Of a stretch of DNA of 64,000 bases, positions 7,174-63,602 are shown piece by piece. A program made the position numbers and the translations under genes. Position 1 is the first letter of the stretch. Every line of letters begins with the position of its first letter. A model generated the notes under the pieces. The model saw only the letters and a list, made by a program, of their open reading frames with translations. It had not been told where the DNA came from and ran no database searches. Source of the DNA: Candidatus Omnitrophota bacterium (GTDB taxonomy: Bacteria > Omnitrophota > Gorgyraeia > Gygaellales > Profunditerraquicolaceae); the NCBI GenBank assembly GCA_003598025.1, contig QZKH01000002.1:74133-138132 (forward strand), in the 5' to 3' direction.

Positions 7174-8199
7174 ATGAACATAAATAATTTCAACCTTGAA
7201 GAGTTGGAGAAAGTGTTGCGCGAATGTGGTCAGCCTGTTTTTCGCGCCCGGCAGATTTTTGCCTGGGTACATAAGAGGAAAGTCTTTGATTTCGGAAAAA
7301 TGTCGGATATGCCGTCAAGCTTAAGAGAAAAACTCAAAAATAAATATTCTATTCAGGATTTAAGCATAAGGAACATAACACGGTCAAGAGACGGAACGCA
7401 AAAATACCTTTTTTCTTTGAATGATGCCAATCTTATTGAAGCGGTGAATATCCCTGCGGCAGGCAGGGTTACGGGATGCGTTTCTACGCAAGCCGGCTGC
7501 AGGTTTGCTTGTAAATTTTGCGCAAGCGGAATTCAGGGATTTGTCAGGAACCTGGAATGTTCTGAGATAATTGAGCAGATTCTTGTCCTTGACAGAGATG
7601 CTTCCGGCGGCCTCACTAACCTCGTTTTTATGGGCACAGGCGAGCCGTTAGATAATTACGATAATGTTATCAAGGCGGCAAGGATAATAAATTCGCAATA
7701 CAGCATTAATCTTGGCGCAAGGAAGATAACCATTTCAACTTCCGGTGTCATTGCCGGCATAGAGCGTCTCAGTAACGAAGGGCTGCAAATCGAACTATCG
7801 GTTTCTTTGCATGCTGCAGATGATAGGACAAGGTCAAGCCTGATGCCCATAAACAAGGTTTATCCTCTAAGTGATCTGATTAAAGCCTGCAGAAAATATA
7901 CCGAGAAAACTAACCGGCAGATAACTTTCGAATACATCCTTATTAAGGGCATTAATTCTACATTGCAGGATGCGCTTAATTTAGTTAAAGTATTAAAAGG
8001 GTTATCCACAATCAAGGTTAATCTTATAGTATCTAATATCGTAGAAGAATCCGGACTTGAGCCGGCGGGCCTGAAAGATGCCGCTGCTTTTAAAGGGTGC
8101 CTTATTAAACACGGCATAAACGTGACGCTGCGTAAGCCGCGCGGACAGGATATTGATGCTGCCTGTGGGCAATTGAGGTTGAGATATGGGGAAGGATAG
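7174..8199 (+). CDS. rlmN: dual-specificity RNA methyltransferase RlmN (radical SAM)
   Basis: 341 aa. N-terminal FRARQIFAWV, radical-SAM CRFACKFCASG, FMGTGEPLDN, and C-terminal DIDAACGQL. Confidence 0.9.
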   Translation: MNINNFNLEELEKVLRECGQPVFRARQIFAWVHKRKVFDFGKMSDMPSSLREKLKNKYSIQDLSIRNITRSRDGTQKYLFSLNDANLIEAVNIPAAGRVTGCVSTQAGCRFACKFCASGIQGFVRNLECSEIIEQILVLDRDASGGLTNLVFMGTGEPLDNYDNVIKAARIINSQYSINLGARKITISTSGVIAGIERLSNEGLQIELSVSLHAADDRTRSSLMPINKVYPLSDLIKACRKYTEKTNRQITFEYILIKGINSTLQDALNLVKVLKGLSTIKVNLIVSNIVEESGLEPAGLKDAAAFKGCLIKHGINVTLRKPRGQDIDAACGQLRLRYGEG

Positions 8200-8866
8200 T
8201 TCACTGTTCATAGTTCATAGTTCATGGATTAAGGCGGCAAATTTTATCTTGGCCTTATTTTTATTCTTTGGGATCATCGGGTGTCAGAAGAGGGATATAA
8301 AGAATATTGATTCTAAGGGCACGAATATCATTTGTTTCGGGGATAGCATAACCTTTGGTTACGGCGTTGACCCGGATAAAAGCTATCCTGCGGTTTTAGC
8401 CGGCATAACGCAGTGGCAGGTCATTAACGCAGGGGTAGATGGCGATACTTCAACCGATGGCTTAAACAGGATTAACAAAGATGTTTTAGAAAAAGACCCC
8501 TTACTTGTTGTTATTGAGTTCGGCGGTAATGATTTTCTCAAGAAAATACCAAAAACGCAAACCGCTGAAAACGTAAATAAAATGATTGATCATATACATG
8601 GACGCGGCTCAATGGTAGCGTTGTTAGATATAAGTACAGGCATTTTACTTAGCGATTACCATAAGCTTTTGAAAGACATAGCATCAGAAAGAGGCGCTAT
8701 TTTTATCCCAAAGATTTTAACAGGAATAATCACTAACCCCAGTATGAAGAGCGATTTCCTGCATCCTAATGAAAATGGTTACGCTGTTATCGCCCAACGT
8801 GTTTACCGCACAATTATCCCTTACCTGAATAGGAATTTTACTTTAAAGAGCATCGCCAGCAAATAA
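8186..8866 (+). CDS. SGNH/GDSL hydrolase lipoprotein (TesA/arylesterase-like)
   Basis: Contains ICFGDSITFGYG (block I Ser), GGNDF (block III) and a lipobox FGIIGC. GAGG sits 7 nt before ATG 8186. The N-terminal residues SSLFIVHSSW are encoded by the heptamer array at 8199-8226. Confidence 0.8.
   Translation: MGKDSSLFIVHSSWIKAANFILALFLFFGIIGCQKRDIKNIDSKGTNIICFGDSITFGYGVDPDKSYPAVLAGITQWQVINAGVDGDTSTDGLNRINKDVLEKDPLLVVIEFGGNDFLKKIPKTQTAENVNKMIDHIHGRGSMVALLDISTGILLSDYHKLLKDIASERGAIFIPKILTGIITNPSMKSDFLHPNENGYAVIAQRVYRTIIPYLNRNFTLKSIASK
8199..8226. repeat. tandem heptamer array GTTCACT GTTCATA GTTCATA GTTCATG
   Basis: Read directly from the sequence: four contiguous 7-nt units. Member of the dispersed family (see findings). 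Confidence 0.9.
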
Positions 8867-11924: not shown

Positions 11925-12271
11925 GGCCTTTTAGCCCGAAGGATTTGGACCGTTTTACGCTCGTTTAGTGCCACTTCAAATTTTCCTTGTCGGAAAATAG
12001 TTATGTGGTGGCGCCGCACTCGCTGCCTCACTTGTCGCTCGGCTACGCTCGTTGCGGCATCCACCAATTTTTTCCTTACCGGAAAATTAAAATCCAAGGC
12101 ACTGAACTCGCTACGGTCCTTGTCGGACCGTTTTACGCTCGTTTAGTGCCACTTCAAATTTTCCTTGTCGGAAAATTAAAATCCAAGGCACTGAACTCAC
12201 TACGGTCCTTGTCGGACCGTTTTACGCTCGTTTAGTGCCACTTCAAATTTTCCTTGTCGGAAAATTTGAAG
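11925..12271. repeat. about four copies of an 89-bp tandem repeat (two near-identical, one partial, one diverged) rich in hairpins
   Basis: The core GGACCGTTTTACGCTCGTTTAGTGCCACTTCAAATTTTCCTTGTCGGAAAAT starts at 11947, 12125 and 12214 (period 89). A ~70% diverged copy lies at 11999-12085. The array fills the spacer between the two minus-strand tRNA genes. Confidence 0.85.
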
Positions 12272-12364: not shown

Positions 12365-12519
12365 TCCCGAGCTACCTTCTCTTGTCTTATGTACCGAGGA
12401 GCAGCCCCATATTTAAAATTTAAAGCTCAGTATACACTCCCAGTCCCGACGCTCATTTGCATTCGGTCGGGATGCCGACTTCACGTATTTTGTGAACGTC
12501 GGCACTGAGCTACAGCCCC
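12365..12519 (-). other. two degenerate, interrupted copies of the tRNA-Ala 5' segment (pseudo-tRNA fragments)
   Basis: On the minus strand, 12519-12505 equals tRNA positions 1-15 (GGGGCTGTAGCTCAG). A 61-nt insert of two hairpins follows (12504-12444), then CTGGGAG (positions 16-22) at 12443-12437. A second fragment has GGGGCTG at 12408-12402 and TAGCTCGGGA at 12374-12365. Confidence 0.6.
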
Positions 12520-12594
12520 ATATTGGCTTAAATTTAGTGTATTAAATATAACATTCGGCTATAGCATTGTCAATACCTTCTGGCTGCCAAACAA

Positions 12595-12691
12595 GTTCAT
12601 GGTTGATAGTTCAAGGTTCATGGACTATGTTAGCGCTTATAGCTATTAAGATTATCTATGAACTATGAACCATGAACAATGAACTATAAAC
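12595..12691. repeat. inverted pair of heptamer arrays (GTTCATN x4, 34-nt spacer, NATGAAC x5)
   Basis: Left arm 12595-12622: GTTCATG GTTGATA GTTCAAG GTTCATG. Right arm 12657-12691: TATGAAC TATGAAC CATGAAC AATGAAC TATAAAC. Confidence 0.9.
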
Positions 12692-12701
12692 CAAGTAGCC
12701 C

Positions 12702-12730
12702 TTGACGCTCCTTACCCCCTGGGGTATAAT
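12702..12730 (+). promoter_or_regulatory. near-consensus sigma70 promoter TTGACG-17-TATAAT (nfo operon)
   Basis: TTGACG at 12702-12707, a 17-nt spacer, and TATAAT at 12725-12730. Confidence 0.6.
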
Positions 12731-13988: not shown

Positions 13989-16406
13989 ATGGAATATGAT
14001 TTTAAGGAAATAGAGAAGAAGTGGCAGGGATATTGGGATAAGAGCGGTCTATACCGCGCTGAATATTCTCCGGGCAATAAGAAATATTATTTGCTTGAGA
14101 TGTTCCCTTATCCTTCGGGCAAGATACATATGGGCCATGTAAGGAATTATGCCATTGCCGACGTTGCCGCAAGGTTTAAGTTGATGCAGGGTTATAATGT
14201 CCTGCATCCGATGGGTTTTGACGCTTTTGGCCAGCCTGCAGAAAACGCTGCAATCAAGAACAAAACCAAGCCCGATGCCTGGACCCATAAATGCATAGAC
14301 TGGATGCGCGTTGAGCTTAAGAAGATGGGTTTTTCTTATGATTGGGCAAGGGAGGTATCTACCTGCGACAGCACTTATTATAAGTGGAACCAATGGATAT
14401 TCCTTAAAATGTTTGAGAAGGGCCTTGCTTACAAGAAAGCCTCGAATGTAAACTGGTGCCCGAACTGCGAAACCACACTTGCTAATGAAGAAGTGATAAG
14501 TGAAGAGTGCTGGAGATGCCATAGCAAAGTTGAGCAGCGTAAACTTGACCAGTGGTTTTTAAAGATCACCGGATATAAAGAACGGCTGCTTGAAGATCTG
14601 GGAAAGCTTAAAAATTGGCCGGAGCGCGTTATTGCAATGCAGTCTAACTGGATCGGCAGGAGCCAGGGCGTGGAGATTTATTTTAAAATTAAAGGCAATG
14701 ATGATATCACGATACCGGTTTTTACCACCCGTGTAGATACTATATTCGGCGCCAGCTACGTAGTTTTAGCACCGGAGCATCCTTTGGTCGAGGATATTAT
14801 AAAAGGCATAGCACATGAGCCAGAGATCAGGAAGTTTATCAATAAGGTAAAGAAAGAAAAAAAGAACATACTCTCCAAAGAAGATGTTAAAAAAGAGGGT
14901 ATTTTCAGCGGCCGTTATTGTATCAACCCGGTGAATAATGAAACTATCCCTGTTTGGATCGGTGATTATGTTTTAATGGAGTATGGCACAGGCGCGATTA
15001 TGGCAGTGCCGGCTCATGACCAGAGGGATTTTCTTTTTGCTAAAGAACATGGGTTACCTATGAGAATAGTTATAAACAGTCCACAGTCCACAGTCCACAG
15101 TCCACAGGAATTGACTGAAGCGTATGAGGGGGATGGTTTCCAGGTTAATTCTGGGCAATTTGATGGATTGGATAACCAAAAGGCAAAGTCCGAGATTGCA
15201 AAGTGGATGGAGGCAAAAGGGATAGGCAAAATCCAGACACACTGGAGGCTGCGCGATTGGCTTATATCAAGACAGCGATATTGGGGTACACCTATACCGG
15301 TTATATATTGTGAAAAATGCGGGATCGTGCCTGTCCCATATCATGACCTGCCTGTTGAATTGCCGGCTGATGCCCCTTTTACCGGTGAGGGTGGCAGCCC
15401 CTTGGCAAAAGTGAAAAAATTTGTAAATGTCAAATGCCCTAAATGCAATGGCTCTGCCAGGCGCGAAACAGATACCATGGCTACTTTTTTTGACTCGTCG
15501 TGGTATTTCCTGAGATTCTGTTCCCCTTCTTTTAATGAGGCGCCTTTTGATAAGCAGGAGGCTAGATATTGGATGCCAGTTGACCAGTATATCGGGGGAA
15601 TAGAGCACGCTATTTTACATTTACTCTATTCACGCTTTTTTACTAAATTTTTCAAAGACCTGGGGATGGTGGAATTTGACGAGCCGTTTACATGCCTGCT
15701 TACACAGGGGATGGTCCTTAAAGAAGGCGAAGTAATGTCAAAGTCAAAAGGTAATATAGTTGACCCAGATTCGATTATAAAGAAATACGGTGCAGATGCC
15801 CTGCGGCTTTTTATACTTTTTGCCGCGCCTCCGGAAACTGAACTGGAGTGGGATGACAGGGGGATTGAGGGAGCATCCAAGTTCTTAAACAGGGTATGGC
15901 GCCTGCAGGATAACCTAAGGGATGGCCCGGCAGATAAATCAGGAGGGCTGGCCACCGCAAAAATACTGCATAAAACAGTTAAGAAAGTAACTGATGATAT
16001 AAATCAGTTTAAATTTAATACCGCGATTGCCAGTTTAATGGAGCTGACAAATGTTTTATATCAGTCCGGGGCAGATAAAGAGGATTATTCTACGTTAGTT
16101 GTGTTGCTGGCCCCGATAGCCCCGCATTTTGCAGAGCAAATTTGGGAGAATTTAGGGAACAAAGAATCTGTATTTAAGGCAAAATGGCCGCAGTATAACC
16201 CGGATTATCTTTTTGATTCTGTTGTTGATATAGTAGTCCAGGTAAATGGTAAGCTGCGCTCTAAGCTCGCAGTCCCGTTTGATGTTAGAGAAGAAGAGTT
16301 AAAAGAATTAGTCTTGCGTGATCAGAAGGTACAACCCTGGATTAGCGGTAAGAATATCAGAAGTTTTATATTCGTGCCCAACAAACTTGTCAACATCGTA
16401 GTCTGA
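13989..16406 (+). CDS. leuS: leucine--tRNA ligase
   Basis: 805 aa. Contains HMGHVRNY (HIGH), VMSKSKGN (KMSKS) and a CP1 editing domain. Confidence 0.97.
15076..15108. repeat. tandem heptamer array (ACAGTCC x4.7, equivalent to GTCCACA units) inside leuS
   Basis: Read directly from the sequence. Encodes [11 protein letters not shown] in a variable linker after the HDQRDF...GLP segment. Confidence 0.9.
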
Positions 16407-16839: not shown

Positions 16840-16935
16840 GTTCATAGTTCATAGATCATGGTTCATAGATAATTTATGCTGACGCTTACATTTATCCATG
16901 CTAAGACAACCAACCATGAACCATGCTCTATGAAC
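16840..16935. repeat. inverted pair of heptamer arrays in the divergent intergenic region
   Basis: Left arm 16840-16867: GTTCATA GTTCATA GATCATG GTTCATA. After a 47-nt spacer, right arm 16915-16935: CATGAAC CATGCTC TATGAAC. Confidence 0.85.
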
Positions 16936-16989: not shown

Positions 16990-17322
16990 GTGCTTTTCTT
17001 AACCAAAGATGAAAAAAAGGCAATAATATTTATTGCGGCGCTTATCTTTATTGGGATCAGCAGTAAAATTTTATTAAAGAAGTGCCAAAAAATGGAAAGA
17101 ATGTATTTTGTTTCTTCCGACGAGTTCAAGCTGGACATAAATAAAGCCAAGTATGAAGATTTATTGGGCATCAAAGGCATAGGGCCTTCTTTGGCTGATA
17201 GGATAATTGAATACAGGAATTTGCAGGGGGGATTTAAAAATATAGAGGAATTAAAAAATATCCATGGTGTCGGAGAAAATAAATTCTGCAGGCTGAAGGA
17301 TTTCTTGAAAGCCGATCAATGA
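16990..17322 (+). CDS. comEA: ComEA family DNA-binding competence protein (helix-hairpin-helix)
   Basis: Contains INKAKYEDLLGIKGIGPSLADRIIEYR...FKNIEELKNIHGVGENKF (HhH motifs) and an N-terminal TM. GTG 16990 lies 8 nt after AGGAGG. The track start at 16876 runs through the repeat array. Confidence 0.75.
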   Translation: MLFLTKDEKKAIIFIAALIFIGISSKILLKKCQKMERMYFVSSDEFKLDINKAKYEDLLGIKGIGPSLADRIIEYRNLQGGFKNIEELKNIHGVGENKFCRLKDFLKADQ

Positions 17323-18703: not shown

Positions 18704-18731
18704 CCGTAACTATGAACTATGGACCATGAAC
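18704..18731. repeat. tandem heptamer array CCGTAAC TATGAAC TATGGAC CATGAAC
   Basis: Read directly. Starts 9 nt after the comEC stop and ends 25 nt upstream of a TTGACA hexamer (18756-18761). Confidence 0.85.
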
Positions 18732-33658: not shown

Positions 33659-33716
33659 GTTCACTGAGCGTAGTTTATAGAAGTATGACCCACATATCCT
33701 CTGTGAACTATGAACC
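33659..33716. repeat. degenerate inverted heptamer element
   Basis: Left arm 33659-33679: GTTCACT GAGCGTA GTTTATA. After a 23-nt spacer, right arm 33703-33716: TGTGAAC TATGAAC. Lies in a divergent intergenic region. Confidence 0.6.
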
Positions 33717-58341: not shown

Positions 58342-58737
58342 ATGAAATTATTAACCAGAGATACGGATTATGCGGTAAGGGCGCTTTGTTTTATAGCAAG
58401 AATGGATAATAAAGTTGTTCCTGTTCCGGAATTAGTCAGGGAGCTTGATGTCCCCAGGCCATTTTTGAGGAAGATCCTGCAGATACTGCACAAAAAGGGT
58501 ATTTTGTATTCTTTTAAAGGTAAAGGAGGCGGATTCTCTTTGGCAAAACCTCCAGATAAGATATTAATTACCGATTTAATAAAGATATTTCAGAATTCTC
58601 TTAAATTAAATGAGTGCATACTGAAAAAAAGAATATGCCCTAATAAGGGCGCCTGTTCTCTAAGGCGTAAGATCGATGGTATTGAAAAGATTGTTGCTAA
58701 GGAGCTAAGTTCTATAACTGTAAAGTCATTAATCTAG
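58342..58737 (+). CDS. Rrf2-family transcriptional regulator (NsrR/IscR-like, three-Cys cluster motif)
   Basis: Contains MKLLTRDTDYAVRAL, a wHTH, GGGFSLAKP, and Cys-x6-Cys-x5-Cys (CILKKRICPNKGAC). Confidence 0.85.
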   Translation: MKLLTRDTDYAVRALCFIARMDNKVVPVPELVRELDVPRPFLRKILQILHKKGILYSFKGKGGGFSLAKPPDKILITDLIKIFQNSLKLNECILKKRICPNKGACSLRRKIDGIEKIVAKELSSITVKSLI

Positions 58738-58752
58738 AAAAGGAGTTAAGAA

Positions 58753-60432
58753 ATGAGTAATAAAATGTTTTGCTATCAATGTGAGGAGACTGTAAACGGC
58801 AAAGGATGCACAATCGAAGGCATCTGCGGGAAAACCCATGTAGTAGCTAATTTACAGGACCTTCTTATTTATCTTGCTAAAGGTATATCTGTATATGCAA
58901 ATAAGGCAAGGGAATTAGGCGTAAACAATGCAGAGGTAGACTTATTTGTAATTGAATCGCTGTTTTCGACTGTCACAAACGTTAATTTTGACCAAGATAG
59001 AATGATTGAATTGATAAAAAAAGCGTTCTATTACAGGGATGATATAAAGAATATGTTTTTCGGGGCATATAAAGCTAAGAACGCAAACAAAGGCTTTGAA
59101 GGGAAGCTCCCGGATGCTTGTATCTGGCATTGGGATGGCAGCGTAGACAGCCTTTACACAAAGGCAATAAGCGTAAGTATATTATCTGAGGCCAATGAAG
59201 ATATACGTTCATTAAGAGAATTATTAGTTTACGGGCTTAAAGGGATAGCTGCATATGCAGACCATGCATATATATTAGGTAAAGAAGATAACGATATACT
59301 GGCTTTTGTCGAAGAGGGGCTTGCTGCTACGCTTGATAATACCTTAGGGGCCCAGGAGCTAGTCGGCTTAGTTATGAAAGCCGGTGAATATGCAGTTAAA
59401 ACAATGGCACTTTTAGATAACGCTAATACGTCTGCCTATGGTAATCCTGAAATAACCCAGGTATTTACCGGCACTAAAGAAGGCCCGGCGATACTTGTTA
59501 GCGGACATGATCTGTTGGATTTGGAAGAGATACTTAAACAGACGCAAGGAACCGGTATAAATGTTTATACTCATGGTGAGATGTTGCCTGCAAATGCATA
59601 TCCGAAATTAAAGAAGTATAGCAATCTTGTAGGTAATTACGGTACTTCCTGGTATAACCAGCAAAAAGAATTCGAGGCATTTAACGGGGCTATAGTAATG
59701 ACTACCAATTGCCTCCAGAGGCCAAAAGATTCTTACAGAGACAGGATGTTTACCACAGGCTTAGTCGCATGGCCGCAAGTCCAGCATATTAAGGACAGGG
59801 TAGGCAGCGCTCAAAAAGATTTTTCTGCTGTAATTGAGAAGGCGCTTGCCCTGGGTGGCCTTGAAGAAACCCCAGGTAAATATATTACAATCGGTTTTGC
59901 CCACGTATCTGCTATCAAAGTCGCAGCAAAGATAGTAGATGCTGTTAAATCAGGGAGTATAAAGAGATTTGTGGTAATGGCTGGTTGTGACGGAAGGCAC
60001 AAGGAGAGGAATTATTTCAGTGAGGTAGCAAGGCAACTTCCGGAAGATGCGGTGATATTGACCGCAGGATGCGCCAAATACAGATATAATATGCTGGATC
60101 TCGGAGATATAGGGGGAATACCCAGAGTTATAGACGCCGGCCAGTGCAATGATTCCTATTCTCTGGTTGTGATCGCCCAGGAGCTGGCAAAGGTATTCAA
60201 AGTTAAAGATATAAATGAACTGCCGGTTTCGTTTGATATAGCATGGTATGAACAAAAGGCAGTATGCGTGCTTTTAGCTTTGTTATATCTTGGAGTAAAA
60301 AATATAAGGCTGGGACCGAACCTGCCAGCTTTCATTTCTCCTGCTGTTTTAAAGGTGCTGGTTGAGAAATTCGATATTAAGCCCATCAGTACTCCGGAAA
60401 AAGATATAGAAGCTATGCTGGCGGCTAAATAA
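58753..60432 (+). CDS. hcp: hybrid-cluster protein / hydroxylamine reductase
   Basis: 559 aa. N-terminus MFCYQCEETVNGKGCTIEGICGK, plus the MAGCDG and AGCAKYR motifs. Confidence 0.95.
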   Translation: MSNKMFCYQCEETVNGKGCTIEGICGKTHVVANLQDLLIYLAKGISVYANKARELGVNNAEVDLFVIESLFSTVTNVNFDQDRMIELIKKAFYYRDDIKNMFFGAYKAKNANKGFEGKLPDACIWHWDGSVDSLYTKAISVSILSEANEDIRSLRELLVYGLKGIAAYADHAYILGKEDNDILAFVEEGLAATLDNTLGAQELVGLVMKAGEYAVKTMALLDNANTSAYGNPEITQVFTGTKEGPAILVSGHDLLDLEEILKQTQGTGINVYTHGEMLPANAYPKLKKYSNLVGNYGTSWYNQQKEFEAFNGAIVMTTNCLQRPKDSYRDRMFTTGLVAWPQVQHIKDRVGSAQKDFSAVIEKALALGGLEETPGKYITIGFAHVSAIKVAAKIVDAVKSGSIKRFVVMAGCDGRHKERNYFSEVARQLPEDAVILTAGCAKYRYNMLDLGDIGGIPRVIDAGQCNDSYSLVVIAQELAKVFKVKDINELPVSFDIAWYEQKAVCVLLALLYLGVKNIRLGPNLPAFISPAVLKVLVEKFDIKPISTPEKDIEAMLAAK

Positions 60433-60447
60433 AATACGGGGGAAACT

Positions 60448-61284
60448 ATGCAGAAAAGGAAAATAATAAAAATTGATGAAAATAAATGTACTGGGTGCGG
60501 CCTGTGCATACCGAATTGCCCTGAGGGCGCTATACAGATAATTGATGGTAAGGCGCGCCTCATAAGCGATTTGTTTTGTGACGGTTTAGGCGCATGTATC
60601 GGCCATTGCCCCGAGGGAGCTATAACTATAGAGGAGAGGGAAGCCCAGGCCTACGACGAGGATAAAGTGATGGAAAATATCGTAAAGCAAGGCCCGAATG
60701 TAATAAAAGCCCACCTCCATCATTTAAAAGCTCATGGCGAGGTAAATTATTATAACCAGGCTTTGGCTTTCTTGAAGGAACACAACATCAATATCCCTGT
60801 AGATAAGAAATGCGGCCCCGCTGGCCACGGGCCATCTGGTTGTCCTGGCTCAAGGATGATGGATTTGCGCAAAAAGAAAAAAACAGAACACGATGTAAGC
60901 TCTGCGGCAAAGCAGGAGTCTGAACTTGGCCAGTGGCCGGTGCAGCTTATGCTTGTGCCCAGCTATGCGCCTTATTTGAATAATTGCGATCTTCTGATAG
61001 CTGCCGATTGCGTTCCTTTTGCTTATGCTGATTTTCATCGCGACCTTTTGAAAGGCAAAACTTTGCTCGTGGGCTGCCCCAAACTTGACGATGTTTCAAT
61101 ATATCAGAATAAACTGGAACAGGTTTTTGCCAATAACGATATAAAATCAGTTACTTATGCCCATATGGAAGTGCCTTGCTGTTTTGGTTTGGTTAATATA
61201 ATACAATCGGCGATAGAGAAATCAGGTAAAGCAATACCTTTTAAAGAAGCTGTCATAAGTATAAGCGGAGAGAGGCTAAGATGA
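60448..61284 (+). CDS. 4Fe-4S dicluster domain protein
   Basis: Contains CTGCGLCIPNCP and CDGLGACIGHCP, plus a Cys-containing C-terminal domain of about 130 aa. Confidence 0.7.
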   Translation: MQKRKIIKIDENKCTGCGLCIPNCPEGAIQIIDGKARLISDLFCDGLGACIGHCPEGAITIEEREAQAYDEDKVMENIVKQGPNVIKAHLHHLKAHGEVNYYNQALAFLKEHNINIPVDKKCGPAGHGPSGCPGSRMMDLRKKKKTEHDVSSAAKQESELGQWPVQLMLVPSYAPYLNNCDLLIAADCVPFAYADFHRDLLKGKTLLVGCPKLDDVSIYQNKLEQVFANNDIKSVTYAHMEVPCCFGLVNIIQSAIEKSGKAIPFKEAVISISGERLR

Positions 61285-62024
61285 TGCTTGGGTGTCCTGG
61301 TTCAGGGCCGTTCAAGCAGCCAAAGCCCGAAGACCTAAAGTGTTCCAGGTGTAATGCTGAAATTGAGATCTGGAGCGATGAAGCCAAGGCTAAATGCCCG
61401 TCTTGCGGAAATATTGTATTACGCAAATTTTCCGGAAACACATGCCTTGACTGGTGTAAAGAAGCCCGTTTCTGCGTCGGAGATAAAGTTTATAAAAATT
61501 ATATTCAGGGCAAGGCAGCATCCTTAAAACAGGGGATAGTCGAAGAGATGGAGCGTTATTTCGGAGATGATACAAAGAGGATAAGGCACGCAAGGAATGT
61601 TATGGGATTTGCTGAAATGATCCTCAAGGAACATAAAGCAGATTGGCATATCGTTATACCCGCTAGCCTATTGCATGATATAGGGATTAAGCGGGCTCAG
61701 GAGAAATACGGCTCAACCTCGGGGCATTACCAGGAGATAGAAGGGCCTGCAATCGCAGAGGCCATACTTAATAAATTGGGGGTCAAAAAAAGCGATATTG
61801 ATGAAATTTGCCAGATTATTGCACATCATCATTCCCCGGGCATAGTTAATACTGAGAATTTTAAAGTCTTATATGATGCTGATTGGCTGGTAAATTTAAA
61901 AGACGAGTATGATATTAAAGACAGGCAAAAACTGATCCGGATTATCGATAGGGTATTTCTGACGGAAACAGGCAAAAGGTTAGCCAACGATACTTACGTT
62001 AACTTAAAAAGGAGTAATCTATGA
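61281..62024 (+). CDS. HD-domain phosphohydrolase with N-terminal zinc ribbon
   Basis: Contains [11 protein letters not shown]...CPSCGN, followed by RHARNV...SLLHDIG...AHHHSPG. Confidence 0.7.
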
Positions 62025-62242
62025 AAGAAAAAGTTTTAGATGTTTTGACAAAAATCCGGCCTATGCTTCAGGCTGACGGAGGGGATGTGGAGTTGGTTGA
62101 GGTTACGCCGGAAAATGTCGTTAAGGTCAGGCTTAAAGGTGCATGCGGAAGCTGTCCCATGAGCCAGATGACTTTAAAAATGGGGGTTGAGAGGCTGTTA
62201 AAAAAGGAAATCCCTGAGATTAAAGAAGTAGTGGCGGTATAG
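62021..62242 (+). CDS. NifU-like (Nfu C-terminal) Fe-S cluster domain protein
   Basis: 73 aa. Contains [13 protein letters not shown] and [14 protein letters not shown]. Confidence 0.8.
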
Positions 62243-62303
62243 TAAATTTATCCCAGGCGGTTAGTTAGCCGTATTAAATAAATAGTGTTTTTAAATAACC
62301 TTC

Positions 62304-62345
62304 CATGAACCACGAACTATGAACTATGAACTATGAACTATGAAC
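62304..62345. repeat. six-unit tandem heptamer array CATGAAC CACGAAC (TATGAAC)x4
   Basis: Read directly from the sequence. The array ends 16 nt before the -35 hexamer. Confidence 0.92.
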
Positions 62346-62361
62346 TAATATGCTATACCCT

Positions 62362-62389
62362 TTGACTATTATCAGCCCGCTGTTATAAT
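62362..62389 (+). promoter_or_regulatory. near-consensus sigma70 promoter TTGACT-16-TATAAT
   Basis: Hexamers at 62362-62367 and 62384-62389, followed by a GGAGG RBS and ATG 62415. Confidence 0.6.
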
Positions 62390-62414
62390 GGGACAGGATA
62401 GGCGGAGGTGTAAT

Positions 62415-63602
62415 ATGAAGACAGAGATAGCAAAGAATATTTATTCGGTAGGGGTGCTTGATTGGAATATGCGTTCTTTTCACGGGCACACTTATTCAAC
62501 AAGCAGGGGCACGACTTATAATTCTTATCTTATAATCGATGATAAAGTTACCCTTGTAGACGGGGTCTTAGGTTCATTTTCAGGGGAACTGATTAATAAC
62601 ATAAGCGAGATTGTTTCGCCTGAGAAAATAGACTACATTATTGTAAATCACCTTGAAGCTGACCATACGGGGGCATTACCCGAGGTGATTAAGATTTGTC
62701 CTAACGCAAGAATATTTTGCTCCCAGAAATGTAAAGAAGGATTATATAAGCATTATTATGAAAATTGGAATTTTAATGTCGTAAAAACCGGGGATATCCT
62801 TAAGCTGGGAGAAAAAACACTGTCTTTTATCGAGGCCCCCATGATCCATTGGCCGGATAGCATGTTTACATATTGCCGGCAGGACGCCCTGCTTATGCCT
62901 AACGATGCATTCGGACAGCACTATGCAACCAGCCAAAGATTTGATGATCAGGTTGACCAATGCGAACTTATGGATGAAGCTGTAAAATATTACTCAAATA
63001 TTCTTTGGCCGTTGAGTGCAATAATCTCCAAGAAAATAGAGGAGATTGAGAAAATGGATATCCCGATTAAGACAATTGCTCCTAGCCACGGGATAGTATG
63101 GCGTAGGGACCCAGCCAAAATAATAAATGCTTATAAAAAATGGTCTAAAAATGAATCAGAGCCCAAGGTTGTAATCATCTATGAGACTATGTGGGGCTCA
63201 ACTGAGAAAATGGCAAGGGCCATATCGCAGGGGCTTATGGATTCAGGTGTTAAGGTCAAGATTTTCGATGTTGCAGTCTCTGACAGGACGGAGATGACAA
63301 AAGAAATGATGGAGAGCCGGGGCTATTTGTTTGGTTCTTCCACGCATGATAATGATATGCTCCCGACAATGGCGGGATTCATGGAATTCGTAAAGGGCCT
63401 GAAGCCTAAGAACAGGCTGGTTTCAGTTTTTGGTTCTTATGGCTGGGCAGGAGGCGCGGTAAAAGAGATTGAAGGAGTTATAAAAGAGACAGGCCTGAAT
63501 ATAAACCAACCTTCTTTATCAATCCAATATGTACCTGATAACAAGGCTTTAAAAGACTGCTACAATTTTGGCGTAAATTTCAGCAAGCTGGTCAAGTTTT
63601 AA
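62415..63602 (+). CDS. flavodiiron protein (FprA-type O2/NO reductase)
   Basis: Contains MKTEIAKNIYSVGV, the di-iron motif HLEADHTG and a C-terminal flavodoxin domain (VIIYETMWGSTEKMA). ATG 62415 follows GGAGG; the track start at 62388 lies within the -10 box. Confidence 0.9.
   Translation: MKTEIAKNIYSVGVLDWNMRSFHGHTYSTSRGTTYNSYLIIDDKVTLVDGVLGSFSGELINNISEIVSPEKIDYIIVNHLEADHTGALPEVIKICPNARIFCSQKCKEGLYKHYYENWNFNVVKTGDILKLGEKTLSFIEAPMIHWPDSMFTYCRQDALLMPNDAFGQHYATSQRFDDQVDQCELMDEAVKYYSNILWPLSAIISKKIEEIEKMDIPIKTIAPSHGIVWRRDPAKIINAYKKWSKNESEPKVVIIYETMWGSTEKMARAISQGLMDSGVKVKIFDVAVSDRTEMTKEMMESRGYLFGSSTHDNDMLPTMAGFMEFVKGLKPKNRLVSVFGSYGWAGGAVKEIEGVIKETGLNINQPSLSIQYVPDNKALKDCYNFGVNFSKLVKF

What the first reader, a model, noticed from the sequence alone, without database searches (positions are those of the whole stretch)
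62304..62389. Longest heptamer array (6 units) directly upstream of the consensus promoter of the flavodiiron gene
CATGAAC CACGAAC (TATGAAC)x4 ends 16 nt before TTGACT-16-TATAAT-GGG. The nfo locus shows the same layout: array, 10 nt, TTGACG-17-TATAAT-GGG. Two of the best promoters in the window therefore share an upstream array in the same orientation. This suggests UP-element-like or activator-site function, or co-regulation of nfo (a DNA repair nuclease) and the flavodiiron protein (O2/NO detoxification).
Basis: partly seen in the sequence, partly recalled or inferred. Interest (0 to 1): 0.55.

Follow-up and report, generated by a model that had tools for sequence, protein, structure and literature searches.

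The report
Dispersed heptamer arrays upstream of promoters
The six-unit TATGAAC repeat in front of the flavodiiron gene is one copy of a family of at least eight such arrays in this uncultivated Omnitrophota genome; most sit just upstream of ordinary promoters of unrelated housekeeping genes, so it is probably a binding array for an unknown protein or a tolerated repeat, not a stress-specific switch.

Summary
CATGAAC CACGAAC (TATGAAC)x4 lies at 62304-62345, 16 nt before TTGACT-16-TATAAT-GGG and the flavodiiron gene. The nfo layout is also as described.

The array is not special to these two genes. The window holds 8 YATGAAC arrays, against 0 expected by chance. Seven of them point at a sigma-70-like promoter 9-24 nt downstream. 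The genes served are a tRNA-Ala/tRNA-Leu operon, nfo-leuS, a CheY-like gene, comEA-comEC, a BamD-like gene, adenosine kinase and the flavodiiron gene. The eighth lies antisense in the first codons of a lipoprotein gene.

Two divergent promoter regions carry back-to-back arrays that form imperfect palindromes. The same architecture recurs in metagenome contigs, including two syntenic relatives. Seven other related loci have no arrays, and the three syntenic ones among them keep the same nfo and tRNA promoters. The arrays are therefore lineage-specific insertions and are dispensable for promoter identity.

Substitutions within units are strongly non-uniform: AAC is almost invariant and position 4 is free. 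This argues for sequence-specific constraint.

Best reading (about 0.4): cooperative heptad binding sites for an unidentified DNA-binding protein that modulates adjacent promoters. Main rival (about 0.3): a tolerated heptanucleotide simple-repeat family. Co-regulation of nfo and the flavodiiron gene is not supported.

The parts
62304..62345 (+). Heptad array, 6 units: CATGAAC CACGAAC (TATGAAC)x4. This is the finding.
   Evidence: No single-strand structure of its own (0 kcal/mol).
62346..62361 (+). 16-nt gap between the last unit and the -35 hexamer (TAATATGCTATACCCT)
   Evidence: gap computed
62362..62392 (+). Predicted sigma-70-type promoter: TTGACT, 16-nt spacer with TG before the -10, TATAAT, GGG discriminator
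   Evidence: 11 of 12 matches. Prediction only; no transcription start data.
62415..63602 (+). Flavodiiron protein gene (395 aa; ODP/metallo-beta-lactamase plus flavodoxin domains), with ribosome-binding site GGAGGTG at 62404-62410
   Evidence: 100% identical to a protein of a Candidatus Omnitrophota MAG
12657..12691 (+). Heptad array, 5 units, 10 nt upstream of the nfo promoter; right arm of a back-to-back pair
12702..12730 (+). nfo-CheY-leuS operon promoter, TTGACG-17-TATAAT
   Evidence: The same TTGACGC...TATAAT is conserved in L145-L148.
12595..12622 (-). Heptad array, 4 units, 21 nt upstream of the tRNA operon promoter; left arm of the pair
12545..12573 (-). Promoter TTGACA-17-TATATT of the tRNA-Ala(GGC)/tRNA-Leu(CAA) operon
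   Evidence: An orthologous promoter is present in array-free L146.
16840..16867 (-). Heptad array, 4 units, 14 nt upstream of TTTGCA-18-TATAAT (16825-16796) of a CheY-like receiver gene (16788-16408); left arm of the second pair
16915..16935 (+). Heptad array, 3 units (CATGAAC CATGCTC TATGAAC), upstream of comEA (GTG at 16990) and comEC; right arm of the second pair. Its promoter is weak by consensus.
18711..18731 (+). Heptad array, 3 units, 24 nt upstream of TTGACA-17-TACTTT and a BamD-like TPR lipoprotein gene (18793)
33695..33715 (+). Short array (TATCCTC TGTGAAC TATGAAC), 14 nt upstream of TTGAAC-17-TAGAAT and the adenosine kinase gene (33816)
8199..8226 (-). Exception: 4-unit array antisense to both flanking genes. 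It lies at the rlmN stop and in the first codons of a GDSL lipoprotein gene. There is no promoter downstream of it.
   Evidence: An orthologous array exists in L145 and is absent in L146 and L147.

Best explanation
The array is one member of a genome-wide family of YATNAAC heptad arrays. These arrays probably act as cooperative binding sites for an unidentified, lineage-specific DNA-binding protein. One protein unit would bind per 7 bp, wrapping the helix as ribbon-helix-helix proteins do on plasmid heptads. Bound just upstream of the -35 (roughly -45 to -90), the complex would raise or lower the activity of the adjacent sigma-70 promoter. At divergent promoters two mirror-image arrays would serve the two promoters. 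Arrays gain and lose whole units by slippage, and the flavodiiron copy is the longest and most homogeneous in the window. Shown here: the family, its placement, its orientation in this window, its preferred gap, its uneven pattern of substitution and its patchy distribution among relatives. Inferred, not shown: protein binding, the identity of the protein, and the sign of any effect.
For: (1) One unit occurs at 8 loci in 64 kb against 0 expected. The only other period-7 array in the window has a different unit. (2) 7 of 8 arrays lie 9-24 nt upstream of a -35 hexamer and point towards it. In both divergent regions each promoter has its own outward-pointing array. (4) Among 51 variant units the changes fall very unevenly. 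Position 7 (C) has 0 changes, position 5 (A) has 2, position 6 (A) has 6 and position 4 (G) has 23 (chi-square p about 1e-6). This is what a recognition core AAC predicts; neutral decay does not predict it. (5) The unit consensus is the same in genomes whose LeuS proteins are only 73-76% identical. In the GDSL gene the array DNA is 30/33 identical between the window and L145 while its flanks have diverged. (6) The family is all-or-none among relatives. There are 3-9 arrays per locus in the window, L135, L136 and L145, and none in about 140 kb from L121, L146-L148 and L149-L151. This fits dependence on a factor present in only some lineages. (7) A precedent exists for such logic. The omega/ParB protein of pSM19035 binds 7-10 contiguous 7-bp repeats that overlap promoters and needs at least 4 repeats (PMC9499535).
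Against: No binding protein was found. The regulators in the window (Fur, DtxR-like, CsoR-like, Rrf2) bind palindromes, and no ribbon-helix-helix protein was seen. Orthologous nfo and tRNA promoters are intact and near-consensus in relatives without arrays. Some arrays sit where no upstream activator site makes sense: antisense in the first codons of lipoprotein genes (window 8199; L135 7786), inside an operon (L145 1287), between convergent genes (L136 6967), or abutting tRNA-Ala with no room for a -35 (L135, L145). Outside the window, arrays not selected through a promoter pattern are about as often antisense as sense: about 3 sense versus 5 antisense or convergent, by my reading. The downstream genes share no function. 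All promoters are predictions.
Confidence: 0.4

Rival explanations
1. The arrays are a non-adaptive heptanucleotide simple-repeat family. They arise and change by replication slippage. They are copied locally by inverted duplication or gene conversion. They persist only where they do no harm: upstream of -35 hexamers, between divergent promoters, after stop codons, and in the loosely constrained start of signal peptides. On this reading they have little or no effect on the flavodiiron promoter.
For: Heptanucleotide repeats are the commonest long simple repeats in prokaryotes, and single-motif families are known (PMC4679880). (TATGAAC)3 itself occurs in at least 120 stretches of DNA from many phyla, often next to arrays of other heptamers. 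Distribution among close relatives is patchy, and the promoters are unchanged without arrays. Orthologous arrays differ by exactly one unit (L123 has 4 units, L128 has 3). Arrays occur inside a coding region. Arms of back-to-back pairs share the same variant unit at the same position, as expected from duplication or conversion. Isolated YATGAAC words are not avoided elsewhere in the window.
Against: Pure slippage predicts locus-specific units, not one unit at every locus and across genomes with 25% protein divergence. It does not explain the invariant AAC with a free position 4. It does not explain the 8-11 nt preferred gap or the 7 of 8 promoter-directed orientation in the window.
Confidence: 0.3
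2. The array is a protein-independent upstream promoter element. It would either contact the alpha C-terminal domains of RNA polymerase like an UP element, or supply unusually flexible upstream DNA (TA and TG steps every 7 bp) that helps wrapping around the polymerase.
For: The position is right, with the proximal end near -45. The arrays sit in front of strong promoters, including a tRNA operon. The same heptamer abuts Bacteroidetes -7 promoter boxes in Prevotella genomes: 17 of 53 arrays against 2% expected. A property that needs no lineage-specific protein would explain this.
Against: The arrays lack the A- and T-tracts of UP elements. They extend to about -90, beyond the normal reach of the alpha domains. 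Most strong promoters in the window lack them and carry a T-run instead. A 7-bp period puts identical steps 240 degrees apart, so there is no net bend (inference). Array-free orthologous promoters look equally good.
Confidence: 0.12
3. The arrays are the ends, or solo ends, of a small mobile palindromic element (MITE-like), or they are recombination sites. Back-to-back arrays would then be terminal inverted repeats built from repeated transposase-binding heptamers.
For: Six back-to-back pairs have 27-39 nt arms that are 77-95% complementary in register, and their DNA folds score z = -4.7 to -9.7. Arms share variant units. Relative to array-free relatives the pair is a clean insertion of about 90 nt. 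In L136 the arrays flank toxin-antitoxin and other accessory genes.
Against: No target-site duplication was seen and there is no conserved internal sequence; the spacers are 7-50 nt and unrelated. More than half of the arrays, including the flavodiiron one, are single. No transposase is nearby.
Confidence: 0.08
4. The array is a contingency or rheostat locus. Gain or loss of units would tune or switch expression of the flavodiiron gene within a population, as the 7-bp repeats do at hmw1A of Haemophilus influenzae.
For: Four perfect units are prone to slippage. A one-unit difference between orthologues has been observed (L123 versus L128). There is a precedent for 7-bp repeats in a promoter region (PMC8262952).
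Against: Most arrays are imperfect. They lie upstream of the -35, not between promoter elements. The genes are housekeeping genes and tRNAs. Three near-identical contigs from different samples (L130, L142, L143) have identical arrays.
Confidence: 0.06
5. This is the first reader's specific idea: a shared stress regulator co-regulates nfo (DNA repair) and the flavodiiron protein (O2/NO detoxification) through the arrays.
For: Both genes have an array plus a near-consensus promoter with a GGG discriminator.
Against: The same arrays precede tRNAs, leuS, comEA-comEC, a BamD-like gene, adenosine kinase and CheY-like genes. In relatives the flavodiiron gene sits in rubredoxin/rubrerythrin operons near Rrf2 regulators, without arrays.
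Confidence: 0.04

Closest known systems
TAACTGA heptamer direct repeats of marine Beggiatoaceae (MacGregor 2015, PMC4679880)
   Same: One heptamer dominates. There are 2-6 tandem copies per set at very many dispersed, mostly intergenic loci. The repeats are oriented relative to the downstream gene. The downstream genes have no functional theme. Phylogenetic distribution is patchy. The binding factor is unknown.
   Different: Those repeats lie within a few nucleotides of the start codon, in the 5' untranslated region over the ribosome-binding site, which suggests translational control. The arrays here lie upstream of the -35 hexamer and are probably not part of the mRNA. The motif and the phylum differ. 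Palindromic back-to-back pairs were not described there.
Short tandemly repeated repetitive (STRR) heptanucleotide sequences of heterocystous cyanobacteria, and long simple sequence repeats in general (Mazel 1990 from my own knowledge; Mrazek 2007 as summarised in PMC4679880)
   Same: These are 7-nt units in tandem, dispersed and intergenic, with function unknown. Heptamers are the most abundant class of long simple repeats.
   Different: Cyanobacterial genomes carry several unit families and often long arrays. Here there is one family and short arrays of 3-6 units, with a consistent position relative to promoters.
Omega (ParB) heptad operators and centromeres of inc18 plasmid pSM19035 (PMC9499535)
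   Same: Both consist of contiguous, non-palindromic 7-bp units in direct or inverted arrangement at promoters. Binding there is cooperative, one dimer per heptad, and at least 4 heptads are needed for full activity. This is the closest known way of working.
   Different: The omega unit is WATCACW, in 7-10 copies that overlap the promoters of the protein's own operon on a plasmid. Here the unit is YATNAAC, in 3-6 copies, mostly 8-24 nt upstream of the -35, scattered over a chromosome. No cognate protein has been identified.
hmw1A/hmw2A (ATCTTTC)n promoter repeats of Haemophilus influenzae (PMC8262952)
   Same: Heptanucleotide tandem repeats in a promoter region.
   Different: Those are long arrays (13-24 units are used in that paper's reporter constructs and strains) lying between two promoters, and transcript and protein levels fall as repeat number rises. 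They serve adhesin genes of a pathogen and are not a dispersed family.
UP elements and FIS sites upstream of rRNA and tRNA promoters (from my own knowledge of E. coli rrnB P1)
   Same: Both occupy upstream positions (-40 to -150) at strong promoters, including tRNA promoters.
   Different: The arrays do not have A/T-tract composition, do not match the FIS consensus by eye, and have a strict 7-bp tandem structure.

Membership tests
Dispersed single-motif heptanucleotide repeat family (STRR / long simple repeat / TAACTGA-like) | 7-nt unit repeated head to tail, at least 2-3 copies | tested here: met
   Tandem Repeats Finder gives period 7 and 6.1 copies; units parsed.
Dispersed single-motif heptanucleotide repeat family (STRR / long simple repeat / TAACTGA-like) | The same unit at many separate loci of one genome, above chance | tested here: met
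   8 loci in 64 kb against 0.0 expected.
Dispersed single-motif heptanucleotide repeat family (STRR / long simple repeat / TAACTGA-like) | Predominantly intergenic, with patchy distribution among relatives | tested here: met
   7 of 8 arrays are intergenic. The arrays are present in L135, L136 and L145 and absent in L121 and L146-L151.
UP element | A/T-rich sequence with A- and T-tracts spanning about -59 to -38, directly adjoining the -35 | tested here: not met
   The unit TATGAAC has no tracts. The arrays end 9-24 nt before the -35 and reach about -90.
UP element | Bound by the alpha C-terminal domain; stimulates transcription without other factors | not testable with these tools
   Needs in vitro transcription or footprinting.
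Omega/ParB-type ribbon-helix-helix heptad operator | At least 2-4 contiguous 7-bp units at a promoter | tested here: met
   3-6 units lie 4-24 nt from the -35. For the family definition see PMC9499535.
Omega/ParB-type ribbon-helix-helix heptad operator | Unit consensus WATCACW | tested here: not met
   The consensus here is YATNAAC.
Omega/ParB-type ribbon-helix-helix heptad operator | A cognate ribbon-helix-helix protein is encoded and binds the heptads | tested here: inconclusive
   None was found among the window ORFs scanned with Pfam or inspected. Only 64 kb of the genome is available, and binding is not testable here.
Phase-variable promoter simple repeat (contingency locus) | Copy number differs among closely related cells or strains | tested here: inconclusive
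   The arrays are identical in L130, L142 and L143. There is a one-unit difference between L123 and L128. No reads of the source sample are available.
Phase-variable promoter simple repeat (contingency locus) | The repeat lies between promoter elements, or between promoter and gene, so that its length sets expression | tested here: not met
   The array lies wholly upstream of the -35.
MITE-like palindromic mobile element | Terminal inverted repeats | tested here: met
   This holds for the back-to-back pairs only: arms of 27-39 nt, 77-95% complementary. The flavodiiron array has no partner.
MITE-like palindromic mobile element | Target-site duplication and a conserved internal sequence among copies | tested here: not met
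   The flanks and spacers of six pairs show neither.

The most novel reading that the evidence does not exclude
YATNAAC heptad arrays are a previously unrecognised class of chromosomal promoter-proximal cis element that occurs in more than one phylum. In some Omnitrophota they sit at about -45 of sigma-70-type promoters. In rumen Prevotella and Bacteroidaceae a stereotyped A-run/(TATGAAC)4/T-run element sits 6-9 nt from one or two -7 boxes (TAnnTTTG) of housekeeping genes. The arrays would be read by a conserved or horizontally spread heptad-binding protein: a global, chromosomal counterpart of the plasmid omega/ParB heptad system.
Probability: 0.12. Interest if true: 0.8.

Novelty: new variant of a known kind. 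Interest (0 to 1): 0.5.

Why it matters
Dispersed heptanucleotide repeat families have been known since 1990 in cyanobacteria and since 2015 in Beggiatoaceae. They are the commonest long simple repeats in prokaryotes, yet none has an established function or binding partner.

This family offers unusually sharp handles:
- a fixed position relative to recognisable promoters;
- a recognition-like core (AAC every 7 bp);
- mirror-image pairs at divergent promoters;
- natural controls, namely syntenic relatives that lack the arrays but keep the promoters.

If a binding protein exists, comparing array-bearing with array-free Omnitrophota genomes should reveal it. The possible counterpart in cultivable Prevotella would make the question testable at the bench. 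If the arrays are neutral, they map where bacterial promoter regions tolerate insertions. For annotation, the arrays are useful markers of promoters in an uncultivated phylum.

Tried and rejected
- The source contig could not be fetched. Exact-product look-ups for the window's flavodiiron and nfo proteins, and for P0001, found nothing. No whole-genome census and no strain comparison at 62304 was therefore possible.
- Closest relatives are only 70-76% identical in protein.
- The orthologous flavodiiron promoter could not be compared. In L121 and L149-L151 the gene lies inside rubredoxin/rubrerythrin operons, and there are no arrays.
- Rfam found only the two tRNAs in the window.
- I considered the arrays as stacked ECF-sigma -35 boxes (xGAAC). 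I rejected this because no CGT-type -10 lies 16-17 nt after the last AAC, and the downstream promoters are housekeeping-type (by eye).
- I compared the arrays by eye with the IHF (WATCAANNNNTTR), FIS, CRP and DnaA-box consensus sequences. None fits a 7-bp tandem.
- I tested for avoidance of isolated YATGAAC words outside arrays. The result was not significant: 4 TATGAAC against a mean of 8.6 for same-composition permutations, and 21% of permutations were as low.
- I looked for a candidate binder in the window. I found only Fur, DtxR-like, CsoR-like and Rrf2 regulators and two receiver-only CheY-like proteins.
- Literature searches for the tandem sequence itself (0 papers) and for Omnitroph* with heptam* (1 irrelevant paper) found nothing.
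- The metagenome loci L122-L144 were retrieved with a pattern that demanded a promoter. They cannot test the array-promoter association. I used them only for the gap distribution and for the extra, unselected arrays in their flanks. A few of them (L122, L125, L126, L131) look like chance matches.
Full report
**1. The observation**

The sequence at 62304-62345 reads CATGAAC CACGAAC TATGAAC TATGAAC TATGAAC TATGAAC. Tandem Repeats Finder reports 62305-62347, period 7, 6.1 copies and 91% matches. It is the longest period-7 array in the window.

Sixteen nucleotides downstream lie TTGACT (62362-62367), a 16-nt spacer, TATAAT (62384-62389) and GGG. The consensus scan scores this 11 of 12. A GGAGGTG ribosome-binding site and ATG at 62415 follow. 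They open a 395-aa protein with ODP/metallo-beta-lactamase and flavodoxin domains, a class A flavodiiron protein.

**2. The organism**

The flavodiiron and LeuS proteins are 100% identical to proteins of a Candidatus Omnitrophota metagenome-assembled genome. The next best hits are 70-76% identical and are also mostly named Omnitrophota/Omnitrophica. The source contig itself could not be retrieved.

**3. A family, not a pair**

I scanned both strands for three in-register units matching YATGAAC at 17 or more of 21 positions. This gives 8 loci, against 0.0 in Markov simulations.

| Array | Strand | Downstream feature |
|---|---|---|
| 12657-12691 | + | nfo, CheY-like gene, leuS operon |
| 12595-12622 | - | TTGACA-17-TATATT, then tRNA-Ala(GGC) and tRNA-Leu(CAA) |
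| 16840-16867 | - | TTTGCA-18-TATAAT, then a receiver-only response regulator |
| 16915-16935 | + | comEA-comEC |
| 18711-18731 | + | BamD-like TPR lipoprotein |
| 33695-33715 | + | adenosine kinase |
| 62304-62345 | + | flavodiiron protein |
| 8199-8226 | - | none; see below |

- Seven of the eight arrays point at a promoter-like site 9-24 nt away, with a gene start within about 100 nt.
- The eighth lies antisense at the rlmN stop codon, in the first codons of a GDSL lipoprotein gene.
- The downstream genes share no function. This removes the basis for a stress link between nfo and the flavodiiron gene.
- Eleven sites in the window match the promoter consensus at 11 of 12 positions. Three of them carry an array. 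Several of the other eight carry a T-run directly before the -35 instead.

**4. Mirror-image pairs**

At both divergent promoter regions (12595-12691 and 16840-16935) two arrays lie back to back, each pointing outward at its own promoter.

- The arms are complementary in register: 27-39 nt at 77-95%.
- As single strands they fold far better than shuffles, with z about -4.7 to -4.8.
- The same arrangement occurs in L132, L135, L137, L144 and L145.
- The two arms often share the same variant unit at the same position, for example TATGATC in L132, CATCATC in L137, and YACGAAC throughout both arms in L145.
- The flavodiiron array has no partner and no structure of its own.

**5. Elsewhere**

*Metagenome contigs.* A metagenome scan for two units, a gap of 1-31 nt, TTGAC, 17-20 nt and TAWAAT returned 23 stretches. 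Most of them show multi-unit, partly degenerate arrays before a consensus promoter. This pattern required a promoter, so these loci cannot test the association. Within the permitted range, however, the gap between the last unit and the -35 is not flat. Across 27 promoter-linked arrays (window, scan loci and L145) it ranges from 4 to 24 nt, and 12 fall at 8-11 nt. After collapsing orthologues this is about 7 of 17.

*Syntenic relatives.* L135 is syntenic with window 12.5-21 kb: nfo 62%, LeuS 73% and the BamD-like protein 69% identical. Four further syntenic loci were fetched through LeuS homologues.

| Locus | Arrays found |
|---|---|
| L145 (LeuS 76% identical) | at the tRNA-Leu/tRNA-Ala divergent region; at the rlmN/GDSL junction (orthologous to window 8199-8226); in a MazG-PNP intergenic spacer |
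| L135 | the tRNA pair; one antisense array in the first codons of the LptE-like lipoprotein gene |
| L146, L147, L148 (LeuS 73-75% identical) | none, even at a lower threshold |
| L121, L149-L151 (flavodiiron relatives) | none |

**6. What the array-free relatives show**

- L146-L148 keep the nfo promoter (TTGACGC, 16-17 nt, TATAAT) and the tRNA promoters.
- In L146 the two divergent -35 hexamers are 8 nt apart. In the window they are 128 nt apart, and the difference is the array pair.
- In alignment A1 the arrays appear as an insertion of about 90 nt between a highly conserved tRNA-Leu promoter and tRNA-Ala.
- In A2 the GDSL array is a 33-nt insertion that adds about 11 residues to the signal-peptide start.
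- The arrays are therefore lineage-specific additions, and they are not needed for promoter identity.
- In L135 and L145 the plus-strand array abuts tRNA-Ala, leaving room only for a -10-like TAAAT(T/A). There the array occupies the usual -35 position.

**7. Evidence for constraint**

- I examined 161 units from 33 arrays. Among the 51 units that carry one or two changes, position 7 (C) is never changed. Position 5 (A) is changed twice, position 6 (A) six times and position 4 (G) 23 times (chi-square p about 1e-6).
- The motif is therefore YATNAAC with an AAC core.
- The consensus is the same across genomes with about 25% LeuS divergence.
- The GDSL array DNA is 30/33 identical between the window and L145, although its flanks are scrambled.
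- Slippage alone homogenises units within one array. It does not keep one unit genome-wide and across lineages.
- The family is all-or-none among relatives, which suggests dependence on a factor that some lineages have and others lack.
- Against this, isolated YATGAAC words are not avoided.
- Also against this, orthologous arrays can differ by exactly one unit (L123 versus L128), so slippage does operate.

**8. Mechanism**

The reading I favour (about 0.4) is that the arrays are cooperative binding sites for an unidentified DNA-binding protein, one unit per 7 bp, acting on the adjacent promoter.

The closest known way of working is the omega/ParB ribbon-helix-helix protein of pSM19035. It binds 7-10 contiguous WATCACW heptads that overlap promoters, and it needs at least four heptads for full activity (PMC9499535). 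Membership in that family is not claimed, because the unit differs and no cognate protein was found in the 64 kb available. The sign of any effect is unknown. A position around -45 to -90 suits an activator. The tRNA-Ala cases, and the Prevotella cases below, suit a factor that replaces or occludes the -35.

The main rival (about 0.3) is a tolerated simple-repeat family. It is supported by the dispensability of the arrays, their patchiness, the coding-region and intra-operon copies, and the fact that arrays outside the window that were not selected through a promoter are as often antisense as sense (my reading).

Lesser rivals:
- an intrinsic UP-like or flexible-DNA element (0.12);
- a MITE-like palindromic element (0.08);
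- a slippage rheostat (0.06);

**9. What is known**

Heptanucleotide repeats are the most abundant long simple repeats in prokaryotes. The nearest described case is the TAACTGA family of Beggiatoaceae: 169 sets of 2-6 copies, oriented, with no functional theme (PMC4679880). Those repeats sit over the ribosome-binding site, whereas these sit upstream of the -35. Searches for the tandem sequence itself, and for Omnitrophota with heptamers, found nothing relevant.

I therefore rate this a new variant of a known kind. It has a new motif, a new phylum, a new position relative to the promoter and a new paired architecture. Its function remains unproven.

**10. A lead from another phylum**

In the 51 Bacteroidales loci (mostly rumen Prevotella and Bacteroidaceae), 17 of 53 TATGAAC arrays have a Bacteroidetes -7 box (TAnnTTTG) within about 30 nt, typically 6-9 nt away, against 2% expected. 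Most of these are exactly four perfect units flanked by an A-run and a T-run. In four loci there is a -7 box on both sides. The downstream genes are diverse housekeeping genes, which by inspection of their translations include rho-, pgk-, pta- and pckA-like genes (not checked against Pfam).

Those genomes also carry many other heptamer units, of which 4 of 26 lie near a -7 box. I could not run control scans with other heptamers. Whether TATGAAC is special across phyla therefore remains open.

**11. Verdict**

The finding is real and statistically solid. It belongs to a larger, coherent and apparently undescribed family. The activator-site idea survives as the leading but unproven reading, and the specific nfo/flavodiiron regulon idea does not survive. 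Interest is moderate (0.5). A specialist would be intrigued rather than astonished. The natural with-and-without comparisons make an old question, what dispersed bacterial heptamer repeats do, more testable.

Noticed in passing
L011 1680-1708, L029 7152-7183 and 2082-2111, L044 6319-6347, L102 4616-4646, L065, L034, L075, L081, L097, L112 (genome-contig loci): In rumen Prevotella/Bacteroidaceae MAGs a stereotyped A-run/(TATGAAC)x4/T-run element lies 6-9 nt from a Bacteroidetes -7 promoter box TAnnTTTG. In several loci it lies between two divergent -7 boxes. The downstream genes are diverse housekeeping genes. 17 of 53 arrays have such a box nearby, against 2% expected.
   Followed up: partly
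window 12430-12521 (minus strand); also L144 1815-1935: A copy of the first 15 nt of tRNA-Ala (GGGGCTGTAGCTCAG) is followed by GC-rich hairpins (TGCCGAC...GTCGGCA). It lies between the promoter and the real tRNA-Ala gene. The same arrangement is present in L144. It may be a partial duplication, an integration scar or a small structured RNA.
   Followed up: no
window 11947-12266; L135 1290-1530; L145 8975-9090; L147 8955-9060: An 89-bp tandem repeat (3.6 copies) lies downstream of tRNA-Ala. Its unit resembles a conserved element found once after tRNA-Ala in relatives: a hairpin that includes the tRNA 3' end, then GGTGGCACTAAAGCGAGCGTA...AGCGAGCGTAGTGCC. It has no Rfam match and may be an uncharacterised small RNA or processing/termination element.
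   Followed up: no
window 15076-15107: A different perfect heptamer array, (ACAGTCC)x4.6, lies inside leuS. It encodes [11 protein letters not shown] in a loop that is variable among relatives. There is no net insertion relative to L145 and L148.
   Followed up: yes
window 8186-8233; L145 7986-8033; L135 7773-7820: Antisense heptad arrays are translated as part of the first residues of lipoprotein signal peptides (MGKDSSLFIVHSSW..., MRKDSSWFIVHSSW..., MRKYSSWFMVHGSWFM...). Array-free orthologues are 14-20 residues shorter.
   Followed up: partly
window 58342-63602: A nitrosative/oxidative stress neighbourhood is present: Rrf2 regulator, hybrid-cluster protein (Prismane), an orthologue of the Fer4 iron-sulfur protein gene that follows Rrf2 in L121, an HD-domain protein, NifU, then the flavodiiron gene. 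In relatives the flavodiiron gene instead sits in rubredoxin/rubrerythrin/desulfoferrodoxin operons next to Rrf2 genes.
   Followed up: partly
L133 470-1660: Five TATGAAC/AATGAAC arrays in 1.2 kb are embedded in a longer repeat of about 55-70 nt (ttgaacttgc + array + ...). This is a dense cluster unlike the isolated arrays elsewhere.
   Followed up: no
L136 361-7934: Five arrays in 9.6 kb flank accessory genes: PIN, HicA/HicB, a 23S rRNA intervening-sequence protein and a sortase. Several of these arrays lie between convergent genes or are antisense. This hints at a link with cassette boundaries or recombination.
   Followed up: partly
window 12595-12691 compared with L135 1139-1222, L145 8825-8895, L146 8580-8720: The orientation of tRNA-Ala relative to tRNA-Leu and nfo differs among relatives. 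It is minus in the window and L146, and plus in L135, L145, L147 and L148. Inversions have therefore occurred at this junction in lineages both with and without arrays.
   Followed up: partly
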